Below are positions 10,383-26,891 of a stretch of DNA of 64,000 bases, in pieces. This stretch comes from an archaeon (GTDB lineage: Archaea; Nanobdellota; Nanobdellia; Woesearchaeales; GW2011-AR9), in the NCBI GenBank assembly GCA_023259115.1, contig JAHFQW010000005.1:2091-66090 (forward strand). The letters run 5' to 3'. A program made the translations under genes and the position numbers. A model generated the notes under the pieces. That model did not search any database and was not told the origin of the DNA. It was given only the letters and a program-made list of their open reading frames with translations. Each line of letters begins with the position of its first letter. The first letter of the stretch is position 1.

Positions 10383-11360
10383 TTATGCTTTTTTCTGGAA
10401 TGCTTTTTTGAGGAAATAGGATAAAATGCCAATAAAGAGAATTAGGACAATAGTTCCAAGAATGTTGACATGAGGGAGAAGAATTAGTTTATTTTGTAGA
10501 GAGTAAAAATATTGTTTCGTGTTGAAGAAGTCCCAAGTATTTACAATTTCTGTTCCTTGGAAGAGGATCATGATGATACCTACTAAGAGTAAGAGTATAC
10601 CTGAGATGAGATTAGTTGTGTGAATTTCGAGGGGTTTATGGAAGAGATTGAATGTAATCATTTTGCCTTTGATAAATCTAGATTCAGAGAGGTGAAATTT
10701 ATCGTAGAAGAAAGAGAGGAGGAATAAAGGTACAAGGTTGCCTAACGAGTAGAAGAACATTAAGAGGGCAGCGTGTCCTATGTTTCCTAATATGGCACCT
10801 ATGCCTAGAATGCCTGCCAAGATTGGGCCTACACAGGCGGTCCAGCCGAGAGCAAAGGCGATGCCCATGAGGAAGACACCGGGGATGTCATTAGAAAATT
10901 TTTTGTTGAGATGAATGAGAGAAGAGAAACCGATTCCGAGCAATGTGAGTATGCCTAGAAAGAAGAGAAGCATTCCTCCGAGGATGGCTATCCAACTTTG
11001 TTGGATGATGGCTAGTGATTGTTCTCCAATAAATCCGGCGATGATGCCTAAGAGCACAAAGATGAGAGAGAAGCCAAGGAAGAAAATACAAGTCATGAGG
11101 GTGATGTTCTTCTTTTCTTTGAATGTGTAGGAAAAATACGCAGGAAGAAAAGGAAGAATACAAGGAGAGAGGATGCCCAGCATGCCTGCGACAAACGCGA
11201 TGAGAAATGAAATTTTTAACGAGAAATCAGTGGAGTATTGTTTGTTGTAGTCAATAATTTTTTGAAGGTTGGGAGGGAGAGAAGATTGGGCTATGACTAG
11301 AGTTGTAGTTGAAAGAAATAGAATTGAAAAAATGAATAAAAGAGAAATGTATTTTTTCAT
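10383..11360 (-). CDS. ccdA: CcdA/DsbD-family transmembrane thiol-disulfide electron transporter
   Basis: Polytopic membrane protein. It carries LSPCILPFLPAYFSY and a second conserved Cys in GWTACVGPIL, the CcdA signature. Confidence 0.75.
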   Translation of the reverse strand: MKKYISLLFIFSILFLSTTTLVIAQSSLPPNLQKIIDYNKQYSTDFSLKISFLIAFVAGMLGILSPCILPFLPAYFSYTFKEKKNITLMTCIFFLGFSLIFVLLGIIAGFIGEQSLAIIQQSWIAILGGMLLFFLGILTLLGIGFSSLIHLNKKFSNDIPGVFLMGIAFALGWTACVGPILAGILGIGAILGNIGHAALLMFFYSLGNLVPLFLLSFFYDKFHLSESRFIKGKMITFNLFHKPLEIHTTNLISGILLLLVGIIMILFQGTEIVNTWDFFNTKQYFYSLQNKLILLPHVNILGTIVLILFIGILSYFLKKAFQKKA

Positions 11361-11383: not shown

Positions 11384-12661
11384 CTACCCACTTGCTGGGG
11401 AGGGATTTTGGGATGTAGGAACTGTTTGAACAGCTGCTTTGGAAGAAGATGCAGGAGTTGTTGCAGCACTTGGAGCAGTTGCGGGGACGGGAGTAATTAC
11501 TTTTTTCTGCACGAGATCTTTGTAGGGCTGTTCGAAGATCTCGATGTTACGCAGAACATATGTGCCATCTGATTCAACAGAGCCGACTTCTTTCCATACT
11601 TTGGTTAAACTGGGATAGGTGTCGGTGTCGCCAGTGAGCACGATGGTAGGAATTTTAGTGATTTTGTATTTTGTGATCAGACCTTGAGCTTGAGGGGAAT
11701 AGATATCTACCGTTTTTTCTTGGTCTAAGGTTAGTCCCAATTGGCGTAAGATGAGACGATTGATGGAGACGTTGTAACATTCTTTGCAGGAATTGTCTTG
11801 CAGATAGGTGACGCTGACAAGTCCTTTTACTTTGCCTTGAGGAATGCTATAATACGGAGGATTGACGTTACGCATGACGAGAGAGCCGTCTGATTCAATA
11901 GTGCCAACGTTGTTCCATACTTGAGTAATAGTGGGATACAGAACAGCTTCTTGGTCAAAGATTAAGGTGGGTACAATGGAGATGTTGTATTTTTTTGTGA
12001 GAGTCTTACCTTCTGAGGAGTCGACGTCAATATTTTTTACGTCTTTGATACTCATTTGTTTTTTGAGGAGTTCAAGTAGAGTTGTCATATTGGAACATTG
12101 AACACAATTCGATTTCTGAAGTGAGATGACGGATATGCGACCACGTACTTGGCCGTTGGAAGGATCAAAGTAAGGGGGCATGGGGGAAGGAAGAATGTAA
12201 TTGCCGTCTTGCGATGTGCCTAATTGACTCAGAAGCGTTGAGAGTTGGGTGGATTTTTCAACTTCGCCTTTGATAATTATGGCGGGCAGCCGAGTAATTT
12301 TATATTTATTGACAAATGCTTGAGCACTACTACTGGAGTAATCGAGATTGGTTTTATCTTTTATTTCTACACCAAGAGATTCTATTTTAGTGATGAGGCT
12401 GGCTATATCAAAGCAATCGGTACAAGAGTTAACAGTGATTATGGCTAATTCGATTTGAGGTTTAGCGACAGCGGTAGGACTTGGAGTGGTGAAATGGGTT
12501 TTGAGGGTTGATACTTCCCAGAGGTTGAGAAGAGTGAGGGCGATGGCGATGATGCCTAAGAGATAAAATAAATGAGTGTATGTAAAAGAAGTTTTCTTAG
12601 GCGGGTTAGGTTGATGATGAGGTTGATGTTGCGGTTGTTCATGTTCTTTATGTTCGTCCAT
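11384..12661 (-). CDS. membrane-anchored protein with three tandem thioredoxin-fold CxxC domains
   Basis: His-rich N-terminus, then one TM helix. Three repeats of about 100 aa follow, each with a CxxC motif (NSCTDCFD, SNCVQCSN, NSCKECYN) and a (K/N)(Y)(K/N)I(T/S)..PT(I/L) cis-Pro-like motif. Confidence 0.7.
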   Translation of the reverse strand: MDEHKEHEQPQHQPHHQPNPPKKTSFTYTHLFYLLGIIAIALTLLNLWEVSTLKTHFTTPSPTAVAKPQIELAIITVNSCTDCFDIASLITKIESLGVEIKDKTNLDYSSSSAQAFVNKYKITRLPAIIIKGEVEKSTQLSTLLSQLGTSQDGNYILPSPMPPYFDPSNGQVRGRISVISLQKSNCVQCSNMTTLLELLKKQMSIKDVKNIDVDSSEGKTLTKKYNISIVPTLIFDQEAVLYPTITQVWNNVGTIESDGSLVMRNVNPPYYSIPQGKVKGLVSVTYLQDNSCKECYNVSINRLILRQLGLTLDQEKTVDIYSPQAQGLITKYKITKIPTIVLTGDTDTYPSLTKVWKEVGSVESDGTYVLRNIEIFEQPYKDLVQKKVITPVPATAPSAATTPASSSKAAVQTVPTSQNPSPASG

Positions 12662-12757: not shown

Positions 12758-12982
12758 TTAACAGCCTCCAACCATTTTTGGAAGTTCTTTGACGCTGCTA
12801 GGTACTTGGCCGACTTGCTTGCCACTGCTTGCGGTGACAGAAGGACCAGCACCAGAAGTAGAACCTACTTTAAAGTTGCCGGTTGAGACTTTTTCTTTCA
12901 AACTGTATAGTTGTACGGCTTGAACGACTGAGACAAGTACGAGTACGCCTAAGATTAAAGCAATTATTGTTTTTTGTTCCAT
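12758..12982 (-). CDS. small single-TM protein ending in KELPKMVGGC
   Basis: 74-aa ORF with an N-terminal TM helix and a Ser/Gly-rich linker. The C-terminal residues ELPKMVGGC precede the stop and were verified from the DNA. Confidence 0.6.
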   Translation of the reverse strand: MEQKTIIALILGVLVLVSVVQAVQLYSLKEKVSTGNFKVGSTSGAGPSVTASSGKQVGQVPSSVKELPKMVGGC

Positions 12983-13075
12983 TGAAATTATCCTCCTTTG
13001 TTGACTTTGGTTTTTAGGTTTAATTATTTTATTAAGCTTATGTCTAATATTGAGTTTAATGGGTGTATATTGTTT

Positions 13076-13927
13076 TTAACAACCACCAACCATTCCAGGG
13101 AGTTCTTTTAATTGTGAAGCGTCTTTGCCAGCAACAGTTAAGCCGAGTTCGACCATGTTTTTGGGAAAGAACAATGTTTTCCATTTCATTACTTCACGTA
13201 AGATTTCAGCATCAGTATAATCAGTGTATGCGCTTAAGTAGAGAGCGATGCTGAGCAAGGCAGGATTGTGTTGACAACCACAAAGAGAGTTGCCATTTTT
13301 ATCCACACCAATTGGTCCGACACCACAACAGTATTCGCAGGAAATACCTACGGGTTTTGTTGCGAGATTGATGAAGCGCTGCCAGGCTTGAGGGTTGTTT
13401 TTTTGGACTTCGACTTTTAAGCCATTGTACATAGAAGCTAGAGTGGATAGTGAGGCGACGGGGTCGTCATAACTTATACCAAGAGCTTGACCATAATCTG
13501 GAGTGCCAGAGGGGAACATTATTGCGATAACATCATCTTGGGTCTGAACTTTTTCTAAAGGGAATACGGCGGCAACGACATGGGCGGTAGATTTTAAACT
13601 GGTTATATCTACCGTTGCGAGGTCTTTGCCACCAGTTACGGTAAATGATTGGGATGATGAACCAAAAAAGTAGCCATTGCCAAGTTGCGCAGAAACGGTG
13701 CTTATCAGTACTTGATTGGAGAGGATAACGATGATGGCAAGAGCAAGTAAAGAGATAATCCAAGGGCTGAAGAGAGAATTTTGTGAATGGTGAGAGGTGG
13801 GGGCTTGTGCTTGCGTATGTGATTCATCATGTGAAGAGATAGGATGTGAATGAATTGGTTTTGCTGATGATTCTTTTGATTTGATCATAGTATCTACCTC
13901 GTGTGCTTTTTCGTTTATTTTTTTCAC
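13076..13927 (-). CDS. membrane-anchored Cys-rich protein ending in KELPGMVGGC
   Basis: His-rich N-terminus and one TM helix. Cys cluster SCEYCCGVGP...CGCQH. The C-terminus ELPGMVGGC is followed by a stop. The start is GTG 13927 or ATG 13888. Confidence 0.6.
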   Translation of the reverse strand: MKKINEKAHEVDTMIKSKESSAKPIHSHPISSHDESHTQAQAPTSHHSQNSLFSPWIISLLALAIIVILSNQVLISTVSAQLGNGYFFGSSSQSFTVTGGKDLATVDITSLKSTAHVVAAVFPLEKVQTQDDVIAIMFPSGTPDYGQALGISYDDPVASLSTLASMYNGLKVEVQKNNPQAWQRFINLATKPVGISCEYCCGVGPIGVDKNGNSLCGCQHNPALLSIALYLSAYTDYTDAEILREVMKWKTLFFPKNMVELGLTVAGKDASQLKELPGMVGGC

Positions 13928-14033: not shown

Positions 14034-14498
14034 ATGATTACGAAGAGAGTTAGATTTGCTGTGCTTTTGGTGTTGCTTGCAGTGCTATTGGGAGTCTTTT
14101 TAGTTGGTTGTGCATCTACACAGGATGTGTTGAATGTGAATTTGCGCGACCATAGTAATTTGGCAGTGCATGTGCATCCCATTTTGGCAATAGAGATTCA
14201 AGGAGGAAAATATACGATTCCAGCGAATATGGGTATTAGTGATACGGGGATGAGAGTGATTCATACGCATGATGATACGGGAAAATTACATGTGGAGTCA
14301 CCCTATCCGCACCAATTCTTTTTGAGGGATGTATTTGCGGTGTGGGGTTGGACATGGAGTGAGAAAGAGTTTATGGGACACCCTATTACGCCTGAGCATA
14401 CGGTGTTGGTGTATGTGAATGGAGCATTGTATGAAGGGCCAAAACCAGGTGATTTACCGCTCGATGATGCAGAGGAGATTAAGATAGTCTATAATTAA
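14034..14498 (+). CDS. secreted or lipoprotein-like protein with His-rich motifs, function unknown
   Basis: Signal peptide with VGCAST. Motifs HVHPILAIEI, VIHTHDDTGKLHVE and FAVWG. Confidence 0.5.
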   Translation: MITKRVRFAVLLVLLAVLLGVFLVGCASTQDVLNVNLRDHSNLAVHVHPILAIEIQGGKYTIPANMGISDTGMRVIHTHDDTGKLHVESPYPHQFFLRDVFAVWGWTWSEKEFMGHPITPEHTVLVYVNGALYEGPKPGDLPLDDAEEIKIVYN

Positions 14499-16411: not shown

Positions 16412-16834
16412 CTAATTTATAGAACAGCCTGTTGCGGCAGCTAGGGTATCAAAACTTTGCACTTTTTCATACCATTTGCCGTTGATGACCCATGTAGGAC
16501 GAGTTTTTAATCCTGCAAGTTCGGATTCGTCATGGTAGTTGATGTAATGGAATGATTTGCCAAACATATTCGCTTGGCCTTGAGTGTATTTGCACCACTG
16601 AATGGCACCATACATTACGGCACCTTTTTGGGTTAGGCATTTGGCAAAGTTGTCGTAGGGACCGGGCTGGGTGTAATAGATATAGGCATATGTGCCGGCG
16701 CTGAGGAGAATTATGACTAAAATGGAAGAGGTTATCATGAGAATTTTATGGATTTTTGATGCTTTATGCTTTGCTTCCTGTTGGAACAGGTCTTCGCGTT
16801 GTTTTTGATATTCTTGGTGTGGGTTTTGTGACAT
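16412..16834 (-). CDS. membrane-anchored thioredoxin-like protein of the VKOR-partner type, with a CxxT monothiol motif
   Basis: FAKCL..GAVMYGAIQWCKYTQGQANMFG...TRPTWVINGK...ATGC resembles Trx-like domains fused to or partnered with VKOR. The usual WCPHC is WCKYT here. The start was trimmed to the ATG at 16834. Confidence 0.6.
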   Translation of the reverse strand: MSQNPHQEYQKQREDLFQQEAKHKASKIHKILMITSSILVIILLSAGTYAYIYYTQPGPYDNFAKCLTQKGAVMYGAIQWCKYTQGQANMFGKSFHYINYHDESELAGLKTRPTWVINGKWYEKVQSFDTLAAATGCSIN

Positions 16835-16904: not shown

Positions 16905-17051
16905 CTAGCCGCAGCCGCCACCAATTGGACCGGTGGGAGCTGTTGCAGGAGCGCTTTGGGTTGTACAACTGACAAGTACAAAAAGCGCACTAAGAAGCAC
17001 CACCATCATTATTTGATATTTATGAGCAACGATCCATTGTTTTATATTCAT
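16905..17051 (-). CDS. 48-aa lipoprotein-like peptide ending in GGGCG
   Basis: Below the ORF-track size cutoff. Hand translation gives MNIKQWIVAHKYQIMMVVLLSALFVLVSCTTQSAPATAPTGPIGGGCG followed by a stop. Confidence 0.4.
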   Translation of the reverse strand: MNIKQWIVAHKYQIMMVVLLSALFVLVSCTTQSAPATAPTGPIGGGCG

Positions 17052-17167: not shown

Positions 17168-17902
17168 ATGGAGTCTTGTGATGAATGCAGAACATTTATG
17201 CCCATTTCTAAAAGGATGAAGTCTTTTTTTACAGAACGAGAAAAATATGGGTTAGAATGGCGCATGATTCAATATAGTATAGGGGCTATAGGGTTATTGA
17301 TATTACTTCTTGAAGTAGTGGCGTTTAGCGTGTGGAGAGAGAATACTTTGTTTTTAAAACAAATGCCGTGGTTAGTCTATTTAGTGATTACGGTATGTGT
17401 AGTATTAGGAGCATTATGGCATGTGCGAGCGCATAAAGTAAACGTTTCGTCGATGATGGGCATGATGATTGGTATGGTCTTAGGCATGCAGGCAGGTGTG
17501 ATGATGAGTGTAGTTATTGGTTCGACGAATGGCATGTTTATGGGATCAGTAATGGGATTATTATTTGGTGTAACAGTTGGGGTCTACGCGGGCAGATGTT
17601 GTGGCTTAATGGGAGTGTTGAATGGAGCAATTATGGGGGCAATGGGGGGGACAATGGGACCAATGATTGCGTTGATGATGAAAGTAGACCATATTTTATG
17701 GTTCATGCCGTTGTTTACACTGTTAAATGTACTTATTTTATGGTCATTGAATTTTTTAGTGTATGAAGAAGTTGTGAGTGGAAAGAAAATAGCAAGACAG
17801 GGAACAGGTTTCGTTCTATTTTTTCTGAGTTGTTTGATTATGACAATTATTGGTGTGCTGATTATCGTATATGGATATAGTTCGGCATTTGCAGCATTAT
17901 AA
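17168..17902 (+). CDS. Met/Gly-rich polytopic membrane protein with an N-terminal CDEC motif
   Basis: MMGMMIGMVLGMQAGVMM...GAIMGAMGGTMGPMIALMM. A CxxC motif lies at residues 4-7. Confidence 0.5.
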   Translation: MESCDECRTFMPISKRMKSFFTEREKYGLEWRMIQYSIGAIGLLILLLEVVAFSVWRENTLFLKQMPWLVYLVITVCVVLGALWHVRAHKVNVSSMMGMMIGMVLGMQAGVMMSVVIGSTNGMFMGSVMGLLFGVTVGVYAGRCCGLMGVLNGAIMGAMGGTMGPMIALMMKVDHILWFMPLFTLLNVLILWSLNFLVYEEVVSGKKIARQGTGFVLFFLSCLIMTIIGVLIIVYGYSSAFAAL

Positions 17903-17937
17903 ATAATTAAAAAAATTTACTCTATGAGGTGAATGAT

Positions 17938-18354
17938 ATGAAAAAATTGATGTTATGTTTAATGGGGGTAATGATTTTTTTATTTTTGGTTGCGTGTACT
18001 CCCAAAGAACAGGCGTTTGATAAAAGTAAAGTGTTGGCGCAATCGGCGGCACAGGCGGGTCCCATATTAGAGAAAGATTTCGATACGGATGCAGCGCAAG
18101 TACGTCATCTGAGTTGGGGGAAGTTGAATTATTATCCTGAGACAATTACTGTTGTGGCAGGGAAAAAAGTGCAGATTATGGGGGATACAAAGAGATTGCA
18201 GGGATGTTTTCGTACCATTTCAATTCCGCAGTTTAAAGTAAATGGACAGTTTACGGAACAGAATAATATGGTGGAGTTTACACCCACCGAAAAAGGTGAG
18301 TTTGGTTTTGGCTGTGCGATGGGGATGGGGAAAGGGACGTTAATTGTGGAGTAA
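17938..18354 (+). CDS. cupredoxin-like lipoprotein
   Basis: Lipobox-like LVAC. ETITVVAGKKVQI...FTPTEKGEFGFGCAMGMGKGTLIV resembles cupredoxin-fold metal-binding proteins with a C-x-MGM motif. Confidence 0.55.
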   Translation: MKKLMLCLMGVMIFLFLVACTPKEQAFDKSKVLAQSAAQAGPILEKDFDTDAAQVRHLSWGKLNYYPETITVVAGKKVQIMGDTKRLQGCFRTISIPQFKVNGQFTEQNNMVEFTPTEKGEFGFGCAMGMGKGTLIVE

Positions 18355-18355
18355 G

Positions 18356-18805
18356 ATGAAACGACTATTGCAGAGACCGTATGTGTACTGGCTCGTTGGG
18401 ATTTTCGTATTTTATTTGGGATTGAATGTGTATATCAGCCAATTTTATGAAACAATACAGTACTTAGAGATATATGCAGCAGAGATTCATTGGACAAAAT
18501 TTATTTTAGGGATATTGTTTACACTGATTATTTCGGGATTGGTTGCGGTGAATTCTGTATATGAATGGATTAGGTATAAAGAAAGACAACAAATTAAGAA
18601 ATCAGGAGTTGTGGCGTGTGTGGGGGGTGTAGTGGGATTGGCAACAGGGGTGTGCAGCGCGTGTGTGGTAAGTATATTTCCACTGCTGTTTGGGTTGTTT
18701 GGGGTGAGTGTGAGTTTTGCGTCGTTGCCATTTCAAGGAATGGAAGTGCAGTTGCTGGTGATTGTGATGTTGGGATTGAGTTTGTGGTGGATGGGAAAGA
18801 AGTAG
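18356..18805 (+). CDS. membrane protein with an intramembrane CSAC motif
   Basis: Four predicted TM segments and GVCSACVVSIFPLLFG. The ATG at 18356 lies 2 nt after the previous stop. Confidence 0.45.
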   Translation: MKRLLQRPYVYWLVGIFVFYLGLNVYISQFYETIQYLEIYAAEIHWTKFILGILFTLIISGLVAVNSVYEWIRYKERQQIKKSGVVACVGGVVGLATGVCSACVVSIFPLLFGLFGVSVSFASLPFQGMEVQLLVIVMLGLSLWWMGKK

Positions 18806-18873
18806 AGGTTGTTTGAAATTGCTTGTTTTGATTGTTTTTTCCACAACATTTAAATATATGAATAATATTTCAT

Positions 18874-19212
18874 ATGAATATGAATTCATATATAGAGAAT
18901 ACTTGTAAAGATATTTCGCCGGCGTATGGGTTGTTCTTTGGCGCGCTGGCGAATGAAAATCGATTGAAAATACTTAATGTTCTTCGAAAAAAAGCGCTAA
19001 ATGTGACAGAGATTGCGAAAGTAACAAGGTTTGAGCAGACGTTGGTGTCACATCATTTAAAGATGCTCGAGTATCATGGCATGGTGTTTGTGCAAAGAGA
19101 GGGGAAATTTAAGTTTTATTCATTGAATCAGAAGACAATTCAGCCGTTATTAGACTTAATAGATACGCATATGAAACAGTATTGTTGTAAAATTTTAAGA
19201 GGGGAGAGATAA
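18874..19212 (+). CDS. ArsR/SmtB-family metalloregulator
   Basis: [47 protein letters not shown] is a winged-HTH motif of the ArsR family. Confidence 0.8.
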
Positions 19213-21467
19213 TGGCAAAAAAGATGAATCAGAGTGCACAAAAATGTACTATTAGTATTCAGGGGATGCATTGCGCGAGTTGCGCGAACAAAATTGAGAC
19301 GGCATTGCTGAAGAAGTCCGGCGTTACAAAAGCAGTAGTCAATTTTGCAACGCAGAAAGCGATGGTTGAGTATGATGAAGAGATGGTGCAGAAAGAAAAG
19401 TTGGCAAAAGTGATTACTGATTTAGGTTATACGGCGTTCTTTGAGGGGATGGGCAGAGGGAATGATCGGGAGAAAGAAGCGAGAGAGAAGGAAATACATG
19501 ATTTGAAGATGCGATTGGTGGTTTCTGGGCTGTTTTCGATTCCGTTACTTATAGGGGGGATGATTTTGCCGTTGTTAGGTATATCATTGCCAGGGGTTGT
19601 TGAGAAGAATATGGTTCTCATTGAATTGATACTAGCAACGCCAGTTATGTTGGCAGGATCGATTTTTTTCTCACGAGGGATTTTGACGTTGTGGAGAAGT
19701 AAAACAGCAACGATGGATACACTTGTAGCGTTAGGCACGGGGACGGCATATATCTATTCATTGTTTCTCTCGATATTGATGTGGGTAGGTGTGAGGGGAT
19801 ATGAGAAAGTGGATGTGTATTATGAAGTGGCGGCGTTGTTGATTGCATTTATTTTGTTGGGTAAATATTTAGAGGCAAAGGCGAGAGGAAAAACCTCAGA
19901 GGCGATTAAGAAGTTGATGGGCTTGCAGGCGAGGACCGCGATAGTTGTGCGGGAAAAGAAAGAGATGGAAGTGGCAATTGAAGCGGTGAGGGCGGGAGAT
20001 GTTGTTGTTGTTAAACCGGGGCAGAAGATTCCAGTGGATGGTACAATTATTGAAGGCTACTCAGCGATAGATGAGAGCATGATTACAGGAGAGAGTATTC
20101 CGGTTGAGAAAAAAAGAGGAGATAAAGTGATTGGTGCGACAATGAATAAGACGGGAGCTTTTTTATTTAGAGCAACGAGGGTTGGGAGTGAGACTGCATT
20201 GGCGCAGATTATTAAATTAGTGGAAGAGGCGCAGGGGAGTAAGGCGCCGATACAAAAGTTGGCTGATACTATTTCAGCTTATTTTGTGCCCACTGTTTTG
20301 GGTATTGCAGTTTTGACACTGGTTACTTGGCTGGTGTTAGGCCATGCTTTAGGGTTTGCGTTGACAACGTTTGTTGCGGTGTTAATTATTGCGTGTCCTT
20401 GCGCATTGGGATTGGCAACGCCAACGGCGATAATGATGGGAACAATGAAGGCGGCTCAGCAGGGTATTTTGATTAAGAGTGCGCAAGCGCTGCAAAATGC
20501 ACAGGATGTGCAGGTGTTTGTGTTTGATAAGACGGGAACGTTGACCAAAGGTGAACCGGAAGTGACAGAAATTATTGTAAAAAATAAATTTTCTCAAGAA
20601 GAGGTGTTGCGTTATGCGGCGAGTGTGGAGAAGAAGAGTGAACATCCTTTGGGTGAGGCAATTGTGAAGAGTGCGGCAGAGAGGAAGTTGAAACTGGCAA
20701 TGGTGACAAAGTTTAAAGCGATAGTTGGGAGAGGATTAGAAGCATACGTGGGGAAGAGCAAGATTGTAATTGGAAATAGGAAATTGATGGAGGAGAAGAA
20801 TATACCTGCCAACACGTATGAGCAGGAGATACAACAATTAGAATTGCAAGGTAAGACAGTGATGATTGTTGCAGTGGATAGGAAAGTGGCAGGATTTATT
20901 GCAGTTGCGGATACATTGAAAGAGAGCGCGAAGAGTATGGTTGAAAGATTACATCATTTGGGAAAAGAAGTGGTGATGATCACAGGAGATAATACCAGAA
21001 CGGGAAACGCGATTGCAACGCAAGTGGGGATTGATATAGTCTTGGCAGAAGTGTTGCCAGAAGGAAAAGCAGAAGAGATTAGGAAACTGCAATCGCGTGG
21101 TAAAAAAGTGGCAATGATTGGCGATGGGATTAATGATGCGCCGGCGTTAGCGCAGGCGGATTTAGGTATTGCGATAGGTTCAGGTACGGATGTGGCAATA
21201 GAATCGGCGGATATTGTGTTGGTTCGAGAGGATTTACAAGATGTGGTGCGAGCGATTGATGTTAGTAGTTATACTATGCGCAAGATTAGACAGAATTTGT
21301 TTTGGGCATTCGCCTATAATGTAGCAGGAATTCCTATGGCGGCAGGGGTGTTATATCCATTTACAGGAGCGTTGCTAAACCCCGTTATTGCGGGGATGGC
21401 GATGGCGTTTTCAAGTGTGTCGGTGGTGGGTAATTCGCTTTTAATGAAAAGATATAAATTTAAGTGA
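19212..21467 (+). CDS. copA: copper-translocating P1B-type ATPase
   Basis: N-terminal HMA motif GMHCASCA, transmembrane CPC ([11 protein letters not shown]), phosphorylation site DKTGTLT, and hinge GDGINDAP. Confidence 0.92.
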
Positions 21468-21530
21468 GCTTTTGTAGGCTTGAAGTGCTATAACAGAAAT
21501 ATAAAAAATATACTGTAGAGGTGATATGAG

Positions 21531-21674
21531 ATGATTTGGAATAAGAATTTGACACGAGATCCGATCTGTGGGGTGAAACAGACACCAGGAAAAGGTATTG
21601 AAAAAGAAGGAAAGTGGTTTTGCTCTGATAATTGTGCAAAAGAGATGGAATATAGGGCAAAATCGCATCAGTGA
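21531..21674 (+). CDS. TRASH/YHS-domain mini-protein (47 aa)
   Basis: Below the track cutoff. Hand translation gives MIWNKNLTRDPICGVKQTPGKGIEKEGKWFCSDNCAKEMEYRAKSHQ. DP-CG...FCS..C is the YHS/TRASH metal-binding signature. Confidence 0.6.
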   Translation: MIWNKNLTRDPICGVKQTPGKGIEKEGKWFCSDNCAKEMEYRAKSHQ

Positions 21675-21717
21675 GTAGTGTGATTTTGTTGTTTGAAAAT
21701 TAGAAGAGGTACAAAAT

Positions 21718-21876
21718 ATGGTATTTGGATGGTTTAAACGTAAAGATCCTGTATGTGGGATGACGGAAGAGAAAGGACAAGGTGTGGAGAGATTAGGAAA
21801 ATGGTTTTGCGCAGAGGCGTGCGCGAAGAAGTATAGTGGTGAGTCGATGGGAGCAAAGAGCTGCTGTGGCAAGTGA
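21718..21876 (+). CDS. TRASH/YHS-domain mini-protein (52 aa)
   Basis: Hand translation gives MVFGWFKRKDPVCGMTEEKGQGVERLGKWFCAEACAKKYSGESMGAKSCCGK. Confidence 0.6.
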   Translation: MVFGWFKRKDPVCGMTEEKGQGVERLGKWFCAEACAKKYSGESMGAKSCCGK

Positions 21877-21943
21877 TTAGGGTTGAAGAGTAAGGTCATA
21901 TAGTAGTAATACAACGAGAGGTTGAGAGATGGAGATAGATTTT

Positions 21944-22360
21944 TTAATGCAGGGCAAGGGTGTTGAGAAATAAGAGAAGGGTAAGTCCGGCAGAGAGTAG
22001 GCAGTAAAAACAGTAGTCTTTAATAATAAATGCTTGGATAGAGAGGAGAGCGAGAGAGAAAAGAACGCCTAGAGTGGAACTGAGTAGTATGAGAGAGAAA
22101 AGAGTAGAGGCGTAGAGGGGTAGAATGAGCATGGTGAATAAAGAGAAGAACATGCCTGCAAAGAAGAGAATGCCTACAATTTCGTTTCTAATGCCAAAGA
22201 TGTGGGACCATTTGCTTTCGGTTACGACATCGCATTTGTGATCGAGAGGACAGAGGAGAGGCTTTTTTTGATAGTGCTTGTAGGTAAGATAAGAGGCATT
22301 GATGATACCTGCAAGAGTGAGTACGAAGAAAGAAGTGATGAGATGAAGAGGGTAGTTCAT
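21944..22360 (-). CDS. vitamin K epoxide reductase (VKOR)-family membrane protein
   Basis: Loop cysteines CPLDHKCDVV, followed by SKWSHIFGI and the CxxC motif CFYC in the last helix. The start was trimmed to the ATG at 22360. Confidence 0.7.
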   Translation of the reverse strand: MNYPLHLITSFFVLTLAGIINASYLTYKHYQKKPLLCPLDHKCDVVTESKWSHIFGIRNEIVGILFFAGMFFSLFTMLILPLYASTLFSLILLSSTLGVLFSLALLSIQAFIIKDYCFYCLLSAGLTLLLFLNTLALH

Positions 22361-22367
22361 GAGTAGT

Positions 22368-22769
22368 TTATTTTTTTCTTCTAGAAGTTTTGTGATTAGA
22401 TGATGTGGGAGAGGATGTGGGGGTAAGGGTTGAGAGCATGATAAGAGCGAGAGCACTGGTGAGAATGGTCACATCACGAAAGATGAGGTCTAATGCTTCT
22501 AGGTTGGCAACAATAATCGCAACGAGTACGAGAGAAGAGATTATTGCGGCGTAATATATTTTTTTATTGGAGAGGAGCCAGAGGGCGAGAATTATTTCAA
22601 ATGCGGCGAAGAGGAAGAGGAGAGGTTGAGCGGGAAAAATTGAGGTGATGAAGAGAGGGAGGAATGTAGACCAGGCAATAGGGTTCAGAAATGAAGCGAT
22701 GGCAGCGTAGAGAAATGCGATGGCGAGACCAACACGAATACTAAATGAAGCGGCTCGGAGGGTGTCCAT
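22368..22769 (-). CDS. DoxX-like small membrane protein
   Basis: Four hydrophobic segments. The size and the IRVGLAIAFLYAAI pattern resemble DoxX, but the assignment is weak. Confidence 0.4.
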   Translation of the reverse strand: MDTLRAASFSIRVGLAIAFLYAAIASFLNPIAWSTFLPLFITSIFPAQPLLFLFAAFEIILALWLLSNKKIYYAAIISSLVLVAIIVANLEALDLIFRDVTILTSALALIMLSTLTPTSSPTSSNHKTSRRKK

Positions 22770-22792
22770 GGGAAAGAAGGGTTGTTTTTGAG

Positions 22793-22800
22793 TATATAAA
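22793..22800 (-). promoter_or_regulatory. TATA-box-like element
   Basis: The minus strand reads TTTATATA, 24 nt upstream of the ATG at 22769. Confidence 0.4.
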
Positions 22801-22827
22801 TCTATTTAGTTCTTGGGATAATTTTAG

Positions 22828-22862
22828 TTATAGAGGAGTTTGAATAACTATATCTCATTGGG
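22828..22862 (+). repeat. dispersed copy (left arm plus loop) of the 1819-1848 hairpin element
   Basis: TTATAGAGGAGTTTGAATAACTATATCTCATTGG here compares with TTATAGAGGAGTTTGAATTACTATATCCCATTTG at 1815-1848. Confidence 0.7.
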
Positions 22863-22883
22863 CAGAATTTACCATAGTTAGAT

Positions 22884-23387
22884 TTATTCTACAATCAGTT
22901 GACCAATCATTTGCAGATGACTTTTGCCGCAAGGGATAGAACAGTAAAATGAAAATGTTCCTACTTTGTCTGCAAAAAATTCTACCGTTGTTGTTTTGCC
23001 TGGATTGATTTCTTGATTGATGTTGTATTCGGGAATGGCAAAGCCATGAGAAATATCGCTACTGAGGAGAGTGATTTTGACTTTATCTCCACGTTTAACA
23101 ATTATGGTGCTGGGATTGAACTCCCATTTTTTAGCAACGATGTTAAATTCTTTAGTTTCGCCGGTTGGTTTGATGGGGGGCGGGGTCTTACCATGGGGAT
23201 AAAGGTCAATTGTTTGGATGTTGCCTTGAGTGTGAGTTTCTTGGATGGCTTGGGGTTTTACAGGAATTGGAAGTTGATTGCTCGGAGTGTTGGAAGAATC
23301 GGGGGAAAGAGGGGCGGAATTTTGGCAGGAGATGAGTGTTAATACGAGAGTTAATACTATTACAAGAGAGATGGTTATTTTTTTCAT
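22884..23387 (-). CDS. lipoprotein with a CuA-type (cytochrome oxidase subunit II-like) cupredoxin domain
   Basis: Lipobox LISC. DISHGFAIP plus YCSIPCGKSHLQM matches the H...C-x3-C-x3-H-x2-M CuA ligand pattern. Confidence 0.7.
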   Translation of the reverse strand: MKKITISLVIVLTLVLTLISCQNSAPLSPDSSNTPSNQLPIPVKPQAIQETHTQGNIQTIDLYPHGKTPPPIKPTGETKEFNIVAKKWEFNPSTIIVKRGDKVKITLLSSDISHGFAIPEYNINQEINPGKTTTVEFFADKVGTFSFYCSIPCGKSHLQMIGQLIVE

Positions 23388-26750: not shown

Positions 26751-26891
26751 AGACCAATATTGTGTAGTTTTTTTATAAATATTCACTCTACGTTTTACTA
26801 CTTATTTAGTGTTATTACTTGAGATATACTAAAAAAGTTTTTAAAGAGGAGTATGAATATAATAAGACTTCATTGATGGATATATATTATA

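What the first reader, a model, noticed from the sequence alone, without database searches (positions are those of the whole stretch)
12758..13927. Adjacent membrane-anchored proteins end in an identical C-terminal tail, ELP(K/G)MVGGC; a third mini-protein at 16905-17051 ends in PIGGGCG
The 74-aa and 283-aa proteins are otherwise unrelated in length, yet both terminate in KELPxMVGGC immediately before the stop. The underlying DNA is also similar (TTAACA.CC.CCAACCAT...). A 48-aa lipoprotein-like ORF missed by the track, 3 kb away, ends in GGGCG.

All three are N-terminally anchored and have flexible Ser/Gly/Pro linkers. Each sits directly beside a thiol-disulfide oxidoreductase gene: the triple-Trx protein and CcdA in one case, the CxxT Trx-like protein in the other.

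A terminal Gly-Gly-Cys on a flexible tether could act as a mobile thiol (a redox shuttle), a metal-binding tail, or a site of C-terminal modification. I know of no described motif of this kind, and it is neither PGF-CTERM nor LPXTG.
Basis: seen in the sequence. Interest (0 to 1): 0.7.

Follow-up and report, generated by a model that had tools for sequence, protein, structure and literature searches.

The report
Membrane-tethered proteins ending in a cysteine arm
Tiny DPANN archaea carry a conserved, undescribed gene set for three membrane-anchored proteins that each end in a flexible glycine-glycine-cysteine tail, encoded beside disulfide-handling enzymes, and these tails most likely act as movable thiol arms on the cell surface.

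Summary
The 283-aa and 74-aa proteins end in LPGMVGGC and LPKMVGGC. The 48-aa lipoprotein ends in GPIGGGCG.

All three belong to conserved families of DPANN archaea:
- The large family has 768 hits and 178 species genomes; 119 of the top 120 hits end in MVGGC.
- The small family has 315 hits; 120 of the top 120 end in MVGGC.
- The mini-lipoprotein family has 260 hits, ending in GGGC, GGGCG or GGGCGG.

The tail codons vary synonymously, so selection acts on the peptide.

The gene order large, small, triple-CxxC thioredoxin protein, CcdA recurs. A small tail-bearing gene follows the large one in 56 of 58 loci.

The small protein is a copy of the large one without its globular domain. The two tails co-vary in six of seven variant lineages.

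The globular domain has invariant CEYCCG and CGCxH motifs and is helical. It matches no Pfam, NCBIfam or PDB entry.

Best reading: these are extracytoplasmic swinging-arm thiols in a CcdA/thioredoxin-fed relay. The closest analogues are the SoxY GGCGG arm and the thioredoxin reductase tail. Copper handling and C-terminal modification are not excluded.

I rate it a new variant of a known kind, function unproven.

The parts
13076..13927 (-). 'Large' protein, 283 aa (270 aa from the internal ATG). It has a His-rich cytoplasmic N-terminus, one TM helix, a helical extracytoplasmic domain with invariant CEYCCG (C197, C200, C201) and CGCQH (C216, C218, H220), and a flexible tail ending in C283.
   Evidence: ORF; 768 homologues; invariant columns; AF2 core pLDDT above 90 and tail pLDDT 38; no Pfam, NCBIfam or PDB match.
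13076..13102 (-). Tail codons LPGMVGGC plus TAA of the large protein.
   Evidence: Sequence; 119 of 120 homologues end in MVGGC; synonymous codon variation.
12758..12982 (-). 'Small' protein, 74 aa: TM helix with a QAxQL juxtamembrane motif, a Ser/Gly/Pro linker, and PSS[VI]K[ND]LPxMVGGC. It is a domain-less copy of the large protein.
   Evidence: ORF; 315 homologues, E down to 1e-33, 120 of 120 ending in MVGGC; present within 3 kb downstream of the large gene in 56 of 58 loci; hhalign against the large family; L087 pair.
12758..12784 (-). Tail codons LPKMVGGC plus TAA of the small protein.
   Evidence: Sequence.
11384..12661 (-). Membrane-anchored protein with three thioredoxin/glutaredoxin-like CxxC domains (CTDC, CVQC, CKEC) and a His-rich N-terminus.
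   Evidence: Pfam Thioredoxin, Thioredoxin_3 and Glutaredoxin; present on the same strand in 51 of 58 loci; three CxxC motifs in 51 of 58 homologues.
10383..11360 (-). CcdA/DsbD-type transmembrane thiol-disulfide electron transporter.
   Evidence: Pfam DsbD_TM E=8e-15; same strand, 39 of 58 loci within 3 kb and 37 of 48 within 5 kb; found in 60 of 85 loci overall.
16905..17051 (-). Mini-lipoprotein, 48 aa: signal peptide with lipobox LVSC, a Pro-rich spacer, and the ending GPIGGGCG. The predicted mature lipopeptide is about 20 residues with one free Cys.
   Evidence: ORF; 260 homologues; 117 of 120 with a lipobox; mature length median 19 aa; endings GGGCG 60, GGGC 29, GGGCGG 14; directly upstream of the CxxT gene in at least 13 loci.
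16412..16834 (-). Membrane-anchored monothiol (WCKYT) thioredoxin-like protein, homologous to the Trx-like domain of bacterial VKOR.
   Evidence: Translation; PDB 3KP9/4NV6 E about 1e-10, aligned over the WCPHC site; WC.YT is conserved in homologues.
18344..18805 (+). 153-aa polytopic membrane protein with CxxC inside a TM segment (GVCSAC). The same domain is fused N-terminally to the large domain in other lineages.
   Evidence: Fusions P0244, P0245, P0250, P0258, P0383 and L079; alignment with C108 and C111 nearly invariant.
21944..22456 (-). Stand-alone VKOR homologue. It is a possible oxidising partner of the Trx-like proteins and is context only.
   Evidence: Pfam VKOR E=9.5e-23.

Best explanation
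This is a DPANN-archaeal cell-surface thiol module.

**The tails.** The large protein, its domain-less copy (the small protein) and the mini-lipoprotein are each held at the outer face of the membrane. Each presents one cysteine at the very end of a flexible Gly-rich tail: LPx[M/Q]VGGC-COOH or GP[I/V]GGGC(G)-COOH.

**Proposed mechanism (inferred).** These cysteines act as swinging-arm nucleophiles in thiol-disulfide exchange.
- CcdA brings reducing equivalents across the membrane to the triple-CxxC thioredoxin protein.
- That protein keeps the arms, and the CxxCC/CxC cluster of the large protein's helical domain, in the working redox state.
- The 8-14 conserved residues in front of the cysteine are the handle by which a common partner recognises both arms. 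That partner would be the helical domain and/or a thioredoxin domain.
- The small protein supplies a second, identical arm next to the large protein. The two may associate through the shared juxtamembrane motif.
- In the second module, the lipopeptide's cysteine plays the role of the missing resolving cysteine of the monothiol (CxxT) VKOR-type thioredoxin-like protein.

**Shown.**
- The three families exist.
- The tails are conserved at the protein level.
- The operon linkage recurs.
- The predicted topology is N-in, C-out.
- The tail is predicted to be flexible.
- The tails of paired genes co-vary.

**Inferred.** That the chemistry is disulfide exchange; the direction of electron flow; which protein reads the tails.
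For: - **Tail conservation.** The terminal Cys sits exactly at the C-terminus and is invariant across more than 400 sequences. It persists in representatives clustered at 50% identity: 79 end in MVGGC and 25 in QVGGC among 150 listed.
- **Protein-level selection.** Synonymous codons and stop codons vary freely at the tail positions.
- **Synteny.** The order large, small, triple-Trx, CcdA is kept on one strand. In 78 non-redundant loci from different species, the small gene is present in 56 of 58, the triple-Trx gene in 51 of 58 (with three CxxC motifs in 51 of 58) and CcdA in 39 of 58.
- **No other recurrent enzyme.** No other enzyme class is comparably linked. No protease or transpeptidase comes near these frequencies. 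The only recurrent peptidase-like neighbour is an M48/M56 (BlaR1-type) protein in 15 loci, alongside a BlaI-type repressor in 17.
- **Second module.** The CxxT Trx-like gene and the mini-lipoprotein gene sit between the large and small genes in L004, L014, L018, L021, L031 and L037, which links the two tail types. Some members of the large family themselves end in -GGCG or -GACG.
- **Co-variation of paired tails.**
  - The pairs are Q/Q (L047, L086), MRGGC/MRGGC (L087), Q...GGC plus one residue in both (L088), MAGxCG in both (L090) and MSGGC/MSGGC (L091).
  - L092 is the one exception.
  - In five of the six matched pairs the codons differ.
- **Small is large minus its domain.** This rests on hhalign and the L087 pair.
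- **Topology and flexibility.** K+R counts favour N-in, C-out for all four anchored proteins. The tail has pLDDT 38 next to a core above 90.
- **Fusions.** The large domain is fused to a polytopic membrane domain carrying CPxC in a TM segment, and once to an FKBP foldase. Both fit a thiol-relay or folding role.
- **Precedents for mobile C-terminal Cys arms.** SoxY GGCGG (PMC6067878, PMC5336275) and the TXNRD1 flexible C-terminal redox motif (PMC10840350).
Against: - **No biochemistry.** There is no expression or proteomic evidence either.
- **No fold-based inference.** The helical domain has no detectable relative of known function, so its chemistry is unknown. Its CxxC...CxC spacing could equally be a structural Zn site.
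- **No docking information.** AF2 did not dock the tail, and no coordinates were available to measure Cys-Cys distances.
- **Partner set varies.** In divergent lineages (L086-L092) the triple-Trx/CcdA pair is replaced by DsbA-like proteins, two-domain Trx proteins or other Cys-rich proteins.
- **Metal genes also recur nearby.**
  - An HMA P-type ATPase is found in 16 loci.
  - Met/His-rich proteins occur in 10 loci, and lie between the large and small genes in three divergent loci.
  - Cupredoxin-like and ArsR genes also recur.
  - The window itself carries such an island.
Confidence: 0.5

Rival explanations
1. The tails handle metal, probably Cu(I). The terminal thiolates of the large, small and mini proteins would bind or hand over Cu(I), or another thiophilic metal, at the cell surface. 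CcdA and the thioredoxin protein would only keep them reduced, as in the bacterial Scs and TlpA/Sco systems.
For: - The window has an adjacent metal island. It comprises a Met/Gly-rich membrane protein, a cupredoxin-like protein, ArsR, an HMA P-type ATPase, two TRASH/YHS-like mini-proteins and a second cupredoxin.
- Across loci, the P-type ATPase occurs in 16 loci, a BlaI/CopY-type repressor in 17 and ArsR in 7. Met/His-rich ORFs occur in 10.
- His/Met-rich proteins lie between the large and small genes in L086, L088 and L090.
- cobW and Nramp flank the cassette in L001.
- The large and triple-Trx proteins have His-rich N-termini.
- In bacteria, the Scs system links copper stress to DsbD-like and Trx-like proteins (PMC10907172, PMC8900818).
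Against: - The metal genes are linked in only about 10-25% of loci, against about 90% for the thioredoxin protein and roughly 70-80% for CcdA.
- The tail's Met, the only other soft ligand, is replaced by Gln in 25 of 150 representatives, and by Ile or Val in the mini-lipoprotein.
- A single Cys per tail is a weak chelator unless several tails cooperate.
Confidence: 0.2
2. The C-terminal Cys is a site of covalent modification or attachment. Candidates are a thioether-linked lipid giving a second membrane anchor, carboxyl modification, or linkage to a cofactor or envelope polymer. The LPx[M/Q]VGG stretch would be the recognition signal for an enzyme encoded elsewhere.
For: - The motif is absolutely terminal, with an 8-14-residue conserved recognition stretch. 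That is typical of processing signals.
- Lipid-modification genes recur nearby. Lgt is found in 13 loci (PF01790, E=5e-69) and LspA in L001.
- The tails of paired proteins co-vary, as expected if one enzyme reads both.
Against: - No candidate transferase, peptidase or sortase is consistently linked. The only recurrent peptidase-like neighbour is an M48/M56 protein in 15 loci, alongside a BlaI-type repressor in 17. A PEMT/ICMT-like methyltransferase is found only in L002 and L003.
- The tail occurs only in these families, not on a diverse set of surface proteins as sorting signals do. Of 174 ORFs ending in GGC in 1.19 Mb of loci, 167 are [MQ][VI]GGC family members.
- All three proteins already have an N-terminal anchor.
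- Lgt acts on lipobox cysteines in signal peptides, not on C-termini (established knowledge).
Confidence: 0.12
3. The tail is a SoxY-like substrate carrier. The Cys would carry a covalently bound sulfur species (persulfide or thiosulfonate) or another small adduct between enzymes.
For: - The tail resembles the SoxY C-terminal GGCGG carrier arm (PMC6067878).
- Sulfur-related neighbours are scattered. They include an SQR/FCSD-like gene in L002, a molybdopterin oxidoreductase in L001, TauE and a cysteine desulfurase in L004, and DoxX-like proteins in 8 loci.
Against: - None of the three tail proteins matches any Pfam or NCBIfam model, which would include SoxY models if those libraries hold them. 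The large protein is predicted to be helical.
- Pfam names no Sox-pathway family in the annotated loci or among the recurrent neighbour clusters scanned.
- The sulfur-related neighbours are sporadic and differ from locus to locus.
- The consistent partners are thioredoxin-fold proteins and CcdA.
Confidence: 0.07
4. The finding is an artefact. The small ORFs would be non-coding, and the shared tail would be chance or a DNA-level element.
Against: - There are hundreds of homologues with significant E-values, preserved length and preserved frame, and gene callers in several sources predict them.
- Synonymous variation with invariant amino acids excludes a DNA motif.
- Synteny holds across 78 loci.
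Confidence: 0.01

Closest known systems
SoxY carrier arm (C-terminal GGCGG) of the bacterial Sox thiosulfate-oxidation system
   Same: A single functional cysteine is flanked by glycines at the extreme C-terminus of an extracytoplasmic protein. It sits on a flexible 'swinging arm' that visits partner proteins (PMC5336275, PMC6067878). The mini-lipoprotein ending GGGCG(G) is close to GGCGG.
   Different: None of the three tail proteins matches any Pfam or NCBIfam model. Pfam names no Sox-pathway family in the annotated loci or the neighbour clusters scanned. The DPANN proteins are membrane-tethered, one is helical with a Cys cluster, and two have no globular domain at all. Their partners are thioredoxin-fold proteins and CcdA.
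Flexible C-terminal redox tails of enzymes: high-Mr thioredoxin reductase -Gly-Cys-Sec-Gly (also the MerA and class I RNR C-terminal Cys tails, from my own knowledge)
   Same: A terminal, unstructured Gly/Cys tail shuttles redox equivalents or a ligand between a buried Cys centre in the same protein and an external partner (PMC10840350). The large protein has both a Cys cluster and such a tail.
   Different: Those are cytoplasmic flavoenzymes with a Cys pair or a Cys-Sec pair in the tail. Here there is one Cys, no flavin or nucleotide domain, an extracytoplasmic location, and separate proteins that consist of the tail alone.
CcdA/DsbD-fed extracytoplasmic reducing pathways (ResA/CcmG, TlpA-Sco, pneumococcal Etrx-MsrAB, Scs copper-stress system)
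   Same: CcdA and a membrane-anchored thioredoxin-fold protein are encoded together with their client (PMC3914529, PMC10907172). The triple-Trx protein and CcdA in the window fit this pattern.
   Different: The clients here (large, small and mini) belong to no known client family. The Trx protein has three CxxC domains. No cytochrome c, Msr or Sco homologue is present in the cassette.
VKOR with its thioredoxin-like partner domain (Synechococcus VKOR, PDB 3KP9)
   Same: The CxxT protein is homologous to this Trx-like domain, including the preceding TM linker (E=1.6e-10). A VKOR gene lies 5 kb away.
   Different: The active site is WCKYT instead of WCPHC, so it has a single Cys. The protein is not fused to VKOR. 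It is paired with a lipopeptide of about 19 residues that ends in GGGC(G).
C-terminal sorting signals (LPXTG/sortase, PGF-CTERM/archaeosortase, GlyGly-CTERM/rhombosortase)
   Same: A short conserved motif at the C-terminus of surface proteins, and 'LPx' begins the motif.
   Different: No hydrophobic helix or basic cluster follows the motif, because the protein ends at Cys. The motif is restricted to these paralogous families. No sortase-like gene is linked.

Membership tests
SoxY sulfur-carrier protein | C-terminal GGCGG with the carrier cysteine | tested here: inconclusive
   The tails are VGGC-COOH (large, small) and GGGC, GGGCG or GGGCGG (mini). They resemble GGCGG but are not identical to it.
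SoxY sulfur-carrier protein | SoxY domain, a SoxZ partner and sox-gene neighbours | tested here: not met
   None of the three proteins matches any Pfam or NCBIfam model. The large protein is predicted to be all-helical. Pfam names no Sox-pathway family in the annotated loci or the neighbour clusters scanned.
Sortase/archaeosortase/rhombosortase C-terminal sorting signals | Signature motif followed by a TM helix and a basic tail | tested here: not met
   The proteins terminate at the Cys, or one or two residues after it.
Sortase/archaeosortase/rhombosortase C-terminal sorting signals | Signal found on many unrelated surface proteins, with a cognate sortase gene present | tested here: not met
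   In 1.19 Mb of loci the tail occurs only on the large and small families, their paralogues and the mini family. No sortase-like cluster is among the recurrent neighbours. Whole genomes were not scanned.
CaaX / Rab-type C-terminal prenylation motifs | Cys at position -4 (CaaX), or CC/CXC with Rab GGTase and REP | tested here: not met
   There is a single Cys at the last position and no aaX. Whether any prenyltransferase acts on it is not testable with these tools.
Bacterial-type lipoprotein (mini-protein only) | Signal peptide ending in a lipobox [LVI][ASTVI][GAS]C | tested here: met
   The window has LVSC. 117 of 120 homologues have a lipobox-like motif.
Bacterial-type lipoprotein (mini-protein only) | Lgt and LspA present in the organism | tested here: inconclusive
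   Lgt (PF01790, E=5e-69) occurs in 13 related loci and Peptidase_A8 in L001. Neither is found in this 64-kb window. The rest of the genome was not available.
Thioredoxin-fold oxidoreductase | Trx fold with a CxxC (or CxxS/T) active site | tested here: met
   This holds for the neighbours only. The triple-Trx protein hits Pfam Thioredoxin and Glutaredoxin and has three CxxC motifs. The CxxT protein matches 3KP9. The large, small and mini proteins themselves are NOT Trx-fold proteins.
CcdA/DsbD electron transporter | DsbD_TM domain | tested here: met
   The gene at 10383-11360 has PF02683 with E=8e-15. This is the neighbour, not the tail proteins.
High-Mr thioredoxin reductase / MerA type C-terminal redox tail | Pyridine-nucleotide-disulfide oxidoreductase domain carrying the tail | tested here: not met
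   No such domain is found in any of the three proteins.

The most novel reading that the evidence does not exclude
DPANN archaea may use genetically encoded, membrane-tethered peptides as non-diffusible stand-ins for low-molecular-weight thiols. The candidates are a mature lipopeptide of about 19 residues ending in -Gly-Cys-Gly, and a 74-aa anchor-linker-tail protein ending in -Gly-Gly-Cys. The Cys-Gly-COOH or Cys-COOH end would act like the business end of glutathione or gamma-Glu-Cys. It would be the resolving or co-substrate thiol for a monothiol (CxxT) thioredoxin-like protein and for the Cys-cluster domain of the large protein, and it would be recycled by CcdA and the triple-thioredoxin protein. 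This would be a new class of 'thiol-on-a-tether' redox cofactor proteins, and a new protein fold acting on them.
Probability: 0.17. Interest if true: 0.9.

Novelty: new variant of a known kind. Interest (0 to 1): 0.68.

Why it matters
DPANN archaea are tiny, mostly uncultured organisms that depend on what happens at their cell surface, and most of their conserved genes have no known function.

This finding defines a widespread cassette, present in at least 178 species-level genomes. It contains three unannotated protein families, a confidently predicted domain with no match in the PDB (the only cellular structure library searched), and an invariant terminal cysteine on a flexible arm.

If the arms are redox or metal shuttles, this shows how cells without a periplasm keep reactive thiols where they are needed: by tethering them to the membrane. 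That extends the 'swinging arm' principle known from SoxY and thioredoxin reductase to proteins that are nothing but the arm.

The work also yields simple, testable sequence signatures for annotation: [LI]Px[MQ]VGGC-COOH, GP[IV]GGGC(G)-COOH and CEYCCG...CGCxH.

It also flags bacterial-type lipoprotein machinery (Lgt, LspA) in these archaea.

Tried and rejected
- **Profile libraries.** Pfam and NCBIfam scans of all three tail proteins found nothing. Scanning 45 members of the large family at E<=10 gave only noise, such as YchJ_N in 5 of 45 at E=0.015.
- **Structure databases.** A PDB sequence-profile search gave 0 hits. Foldseek against the PDB gave a best E of 3.2. No structural relative was found.
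- **Literature.** Full-text searches for MVGGC, CEYCC, VGGC and GGGCG, and for DPANN with CcdA and thioredoxin, found nothing relevant.
- **Membrane CxxC protein.**
  - AF2 on the 153-aa protein with an 11-sequence alignment gave pLDDT 61 and pTM 0.38.
  - That is too poor for a fold search, so its fold remains unknown.
- **First hhalign run.**
  - The comparison of the small and large families was confounded because alignment A1 contained P0049, a natural large+small fusion.
  - I repeated it without P0049.
- **Methyltransferase idea.** An ICMT/PEMT-like methyltransferase could have modified the terminal Cys. It is present only in L002 and L003, so I dropped the idea.
- **CaaX-protease idea.** The M48/M56 peptidase neighbour occurs in 15 loci and a BlaI-type repressor in 17. 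It looks like a BlaR1/BlaI-type regulator pair, not a tail protease.
- **DNA-motif explanation.** Rejected because of synonymous variation at the tail codons.
- **Cytochrome c maturation role for CcdA/Trx.** No CXXCH protein or CcsBA-like gene was seen in the cassette. The whole genome was not tested.
  - Measuring Cys-Cys distances, because no coordinates are returned.
  - Multimer modelling.
Full report
**1. The observation**

All three ORFs are on the minus strand.
- 13076-13927 encodes a 283-aa protein ending KELPGMVGGC.
- 12758-12982 encodes a 74-aa protein ending KELPKMVGGC.
- 16905-17051 encodes a 48-aa lipoprotein-like protein ending TGPIGGGCG.

In the whole 64-kb window, only these two six-frame ORFs of at least 30 aa end in VGGC, and only one ends in GGCG.

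- 11384-12661 is a membrane-anchored protein with thioredoxin/glutaredoxin-type domains and three CxxC motifs.
- 10383-11360 is CcdA (DsbD_TM, E=8e-15).
- These two genes and the two tail genes form a tight co-directional array. The gaps are 23, 96 and 93 nt.
- Next to the mini-ORF, 16412-16834 encodes a membrane-anchored homologue of the thioredoxin-like domain of Synechococcus VKOR (3KP9, E=1.6e-10). It has WCKYT in place of WCPHC.

**2. All three are real, conserved genes**

*Large protein.*
- It has 768 homologues at E<=1e-3. Sources that name them call them Woesearchaeota, Nanoarchaeota or DPANN.
- 119 of the best 120 end in MVGGC.
- A scan of one genome per species found it in 178 genomes. 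Nearly all are DPANN: Woese-, Nano-, Micr-, Aenigm- and Iainarchaeota.
- An exhaustive HMMER search of 1.84 billion cluster representatives found 281 representatives. Essentially every full-length one ends in [M/Q]VGGC: 79 MVGGC, 25 QVGGC, and a few MVGSC, MRGGC, IGGCG or GACG.

*Small protein.*
- It has 315 homologues. The top 120 are all 70-83 aa, with E from 1e-22 to 1e-33, and 120 of 120 end in MVGGC.
- P at position -14, L at -8 and P at -7 are invariant.

*Mini-lipoprotein.*
- It has 260 homologues. The top 120 have E from 2e-19 to 4e-8.
- 117 of 120 have a lipobox, and 103 of 120 have exactly two cysteines.
- The predicted mature length has a median of 19 residues.
- The endings are GGGCG (60), GGGC (29) and GGGCGG (14).

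*Selection acts on the peptide.* At the tail positions, all synonymous codons for Leu, Pro, Val and Gly and all three stop codons are used, while the amino acids stay fixed.

**3. Genomic linkage**

I analysed 85 fetched loci, of which 78 are non-redundant, totalling 1.19 Mb.
- A small tail-bearing ORF follows the large gene on the same strand within 3 kb in 56 of 58 loci that have enough sequence.
- The triple-Trx gene is present in 51 of 58, with three CxxC motifs in 51 of 58 homologues.
- CcdA is present in 39 of 58 within 3 kb.
- The CxxT Trx-like gene lies within 5 kb in 28 loci. In at least 13 it is directly preceded by the mini-lipoprotein gene.
- In several loci (L004, L014, L018, L021, L031, L037) this pair sits between the large and small genes. 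The two tail types therefore belong to one system.
- Some members of the large family themselves end in -GGCG or -GACG.
- Of 12,427 ORFs in these loci, 174 end in GGC, and 167 of those are [MQ][VI]GGC family members. The tail is not a general surface-protein signal.

Less frequent recurrent neighbours:

| Neighbour | Loci |
|---|---|
| DUF835 sensor | 25 |
| His-rich lipoprotein (homologue of window 14034-14498) | 20 |
| BlaI-type repressor | 17 |
| HMA P-type ATPase | 16 |
| M48/M56 peptidase | 15 |
| Lgt | 13 |
| Met/His-rich proteins | 10 |
| DsbA-like protein | 9 |
| DoxX | 8 |

**4. Anatomy of the large protein**

- It has a His-rich N-terminus, one TM helix, a disordered linker, a confidently modelled all-helical domain and an unstructured tail. 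In the AF2 model, residues about 100-270 mostly exceed pLDDT 90, and the last residues have pLDDT 38.
- The invariant residues include C197, C200 and C201 (CEYCCG), C216, C218 and H220 (CGCQH), and C283.
- Nothing matches it. Pfam finds nothing even at E<=10 across 45 members, and neither do NCBIfam, a PDB sequence profile or Foldseek against the PDB (best E=3.2).
- K+R counts on the two sides of the TM helix favour an N-in, C-out topology for the large, small, triple-Trx and CxxT proteins. The tails are therefore predicted to be extracytoplasmic.
- Two kinds of natural fusion occur. In several lineages the domain is fused to a polytopic membrane domain carrying GCP(S/T)CG in a TM segment. That domain is the homologue of the separate window gene 18344-18805. 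In one case the domain is fused to an FKBP foldase.

**5. The small protein is the large protein without its domain, and the tails co-vary**

- Besides the tail, the small family's juxtamembrane motif (VVQAFQLxxLKxKV) aligns to that of the large family (LFNQxQIxSxS), with hhalign probability 94% and E=1.2e-7.
- In L087 the first 23 or so residues and the last 12 residues of the pair are nearly identical.
- Where a lineage departs from MVGGC, its partner departs in the same way:

| Locus | Large tail | Small tail |
|---|---|---|
| L047 | QVGGC | QVGGC |
| L086 | LPQQVGGC | LPTQVGGC |
| L087 | IPSMRGGC | IPSMRGGC |
| L088 | LPAQIGGCG | IPSQVGGCS |
| L090 | SSGMAGACG | SSGMAGSCG |
| L091 | LPQMSGGC | LPQMSGGC |
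| L092 (exception) | MRGGC | MVGGC |

- In five of the six matched pairs, the identical residues are encoded by different codons, with 3-7 synonymous differences. This points to selection and not merely recent gene conversion.
- Divergent paralogous pairs (L072) also keep MVGGC on both members.
- The simplest reading is that one partner reads both tails, or that the tails act on each other.
- The residue at x in LPxMVGGC differs systematically. It is Gly in the large protein (115 of 120) and Gln, Lys, Thr or Ser in the small one.

**6. Most likely mechanism**

*Shown:*
- terminal, invariant cysteines sit on flexible tails;
- selection acts at the protein level;
- the predicted location is extracytoplasmic;
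- there is tight operon linkage to a CcdA-fed multi-thioredoxin protein and to a monothiol VKOR-type thioredoxin-like protein;
- the paired tails co-vary.

*Inferred:*
- The cysteines are swinging-arm thiols in thiol-disulfide exchange.
- They are kept in the working state by the path CcdA to triple-Trx.
- The conserved 8-14 residues ahead of the Cys are the recognition handle.
- The small protein provides a second identical arm beside the large protein.
- The lipopeptide provides in trans the resolving thiol that the CxxT protein lacks.

I put this at about 0.5.

*Rivals:*
- **Cu(I)/metal hand-off (0.2).** It is supported by the metal island in the window (ArsR, HMA P-type ATPase, cupredoxins, TRASH-like mini-proteins). 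It is also supported by Met/His-rich proteins inserted between the large and small genes in three divergent loci. It is weakened by the much lower linkage frequency and by the replacement of the tail Met by Gln.
- **Modification or attachment site (0.12).** No linked enzyme was found, and the motif is restricted to these families.
- **SoxY-like sulfur carrier (0.07).** No SoxY domain or Sox-pathway context is detectable.
- **Artefact (about 0.01).**

**7. Comparison with what is known**

- The closest described principle is a C-terminal Gly/Cys swinging arm. Examples are the SoxY GGCGG (PMC6067878, PMC5336275) and the flexible C-terminal redox motif of thioredoxin reductase (PMC10840350).
- The genetic logic resembles CcdA/DsbD-fed pathways with their clients. 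Examples are pneumococcal Etrx (PMC3914529) and the Scs copper-stress system (PMC10907172).
- None of the three tail proteins passes a membership test for SoxY, sortase-type signals, CaaX or thioredoxin-fold families (see the table).
- The mini-protein does meet the lipobox criterion.
- No publication in the held library mentions these motifs.

**8. Verdict**

The finding is genuine and well supported as an observation. It identifies an undescribed, widespread DPANN cassette with a domain that matches no solved structure and two 'tail-only' proteins. The concept (a mobile terminal thiol) has precedents, so I rate it a new variant of a known kind. The chemistry remains to be shown experimentally. 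Interest 0.68.

Noticed in passing
L076:14532-15290; 13 of 78 loci (cluster 12); L001:20861-20897: Bacterial-type lipoprotein machinery appears in DPANN contigs. Lgt (PF01790, E=5e-69) lies a few kb downstream of the cassette in 13 loci, mostly on the same strand, and L001 has a Peptidase_A8 (LspA) gene. A 2018 review (PMC6098224) states that no archaeal Lgt or SPII homologues had been identified.
   Followed up: partly
window 18344-18805 (+); P0244, P0245, P0250, P0258, P0383; L079:9305-10708: An unannotated polytopic membrane domain has a CxxC (GCPSCG / GVCSAC) inside a TM segment and a P(F/L)KG(L/I)E motif. It is a separate gene in the window but is fused N-terminally to the large domain in several lineages. 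It has no Pfam hit, and the AF2 model was too poor to classify.
   Followed up: partly
P0049 (335 aa); P0295: P0049 is a read-through fusion of the large and small proteins (...LPGIVGGC-EGGKK-MKQATL...LPQMVGGC). P0295 continues for 18 residues past MVGGC. These may be stop-codon loss or sequencing error.
   Followed up: no
window 13750-13927 and 12540-12661 (N-terminal codons of the large and triple-Trx genes): Both membrane-anchored proteins have His-rich predicted cytoplasmic N-termini (HSHPISSHDESH..., HKEHEQPQHQPHHQ). Many homologues share this feature, which may indicate a metal-binding or sensing tail.
   Followed up: no
window 14034-14498 (+): A 154-aa lipoprotein has conserved His motifs (HVHP...IHTHDDTGKLH) and no Pfam hit. 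Homologues recur next to the cassette in 20 loci (cluster 6).
   Followed up: partly
window 17168-23387: This stretch is an envelope metal and thiol island. It holds a Met/Gly-rich membrane protein with a CC motif (17168-17902), a cupredoxin-like lipoprotein (17929-18354), ArsR (18874-19212) and an HMA P-type ATPase (19212-21467). It also holds two TRASH/YHS-like mini-proteins (21531-21674, and 21718-21876 ending SCCGK), VKOR (21944-22456), a small polytopic membrane protein of unknown family (22368-22769, not scanned) and a second cupredoxin (22884-23387).
   Followed up: partly
L086:1398-1709; L088:4889-5185; L090:1710-2012: In three divergent lineages, a His/Met-rich (copper-binding-type) small protein is inserted between the large and small genes.
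   Followed up: partly
L087:4148-4588; L090:2252-2776: A Cys-rich membrane-anchored protein (about 12 Cys in the last 60 residues) follows the small gene in two divergent lineages. It has no Pfam hit on record. L087 also carries an array of six T4SS_pilin-like genes downstream.
   Followed up: no
25 loci, e.g. L002:8122-9852, L004:7933-9705: A DUF835 sensor-like protein of about 580 aa (dCache in some) is transcribed divergently just upstream of the large gene in 25 loci. It is a candidate regulator of the cassette and is not present next to it in the window.
   Followed up: no
L007, L011, L014, L015 and others (record titles): Many contigs carrying this DPANN cassette are titled 'uncultured Methanosarcinales archaeon', and two are labelled 'Patescibacteria' or 'bacterium'. 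These are probably taxonomic mislabels or mis-binned contigs.
   Followed up: no
window 24600-26786 (-); L001:6506-8635: A fusion of glutamine amidotransferase/asparagine synthase with a diphthamide-synthase-type ATP pyrophosphatase domain lies near the cassette in both the window and L001.
   Followed up: no
window 40565-47092 (-) and 51084-56174 (-): Two giant ORFs of 2175 aa and 1696 aa were seen. They were not examined.
   Followed up: no
L031:13764-14237: A membrane-anchored CPWC thioredoxin-like protein itself ends in ...DVTGGC. This may be chance or a further tail carrier.
   Followed up: no
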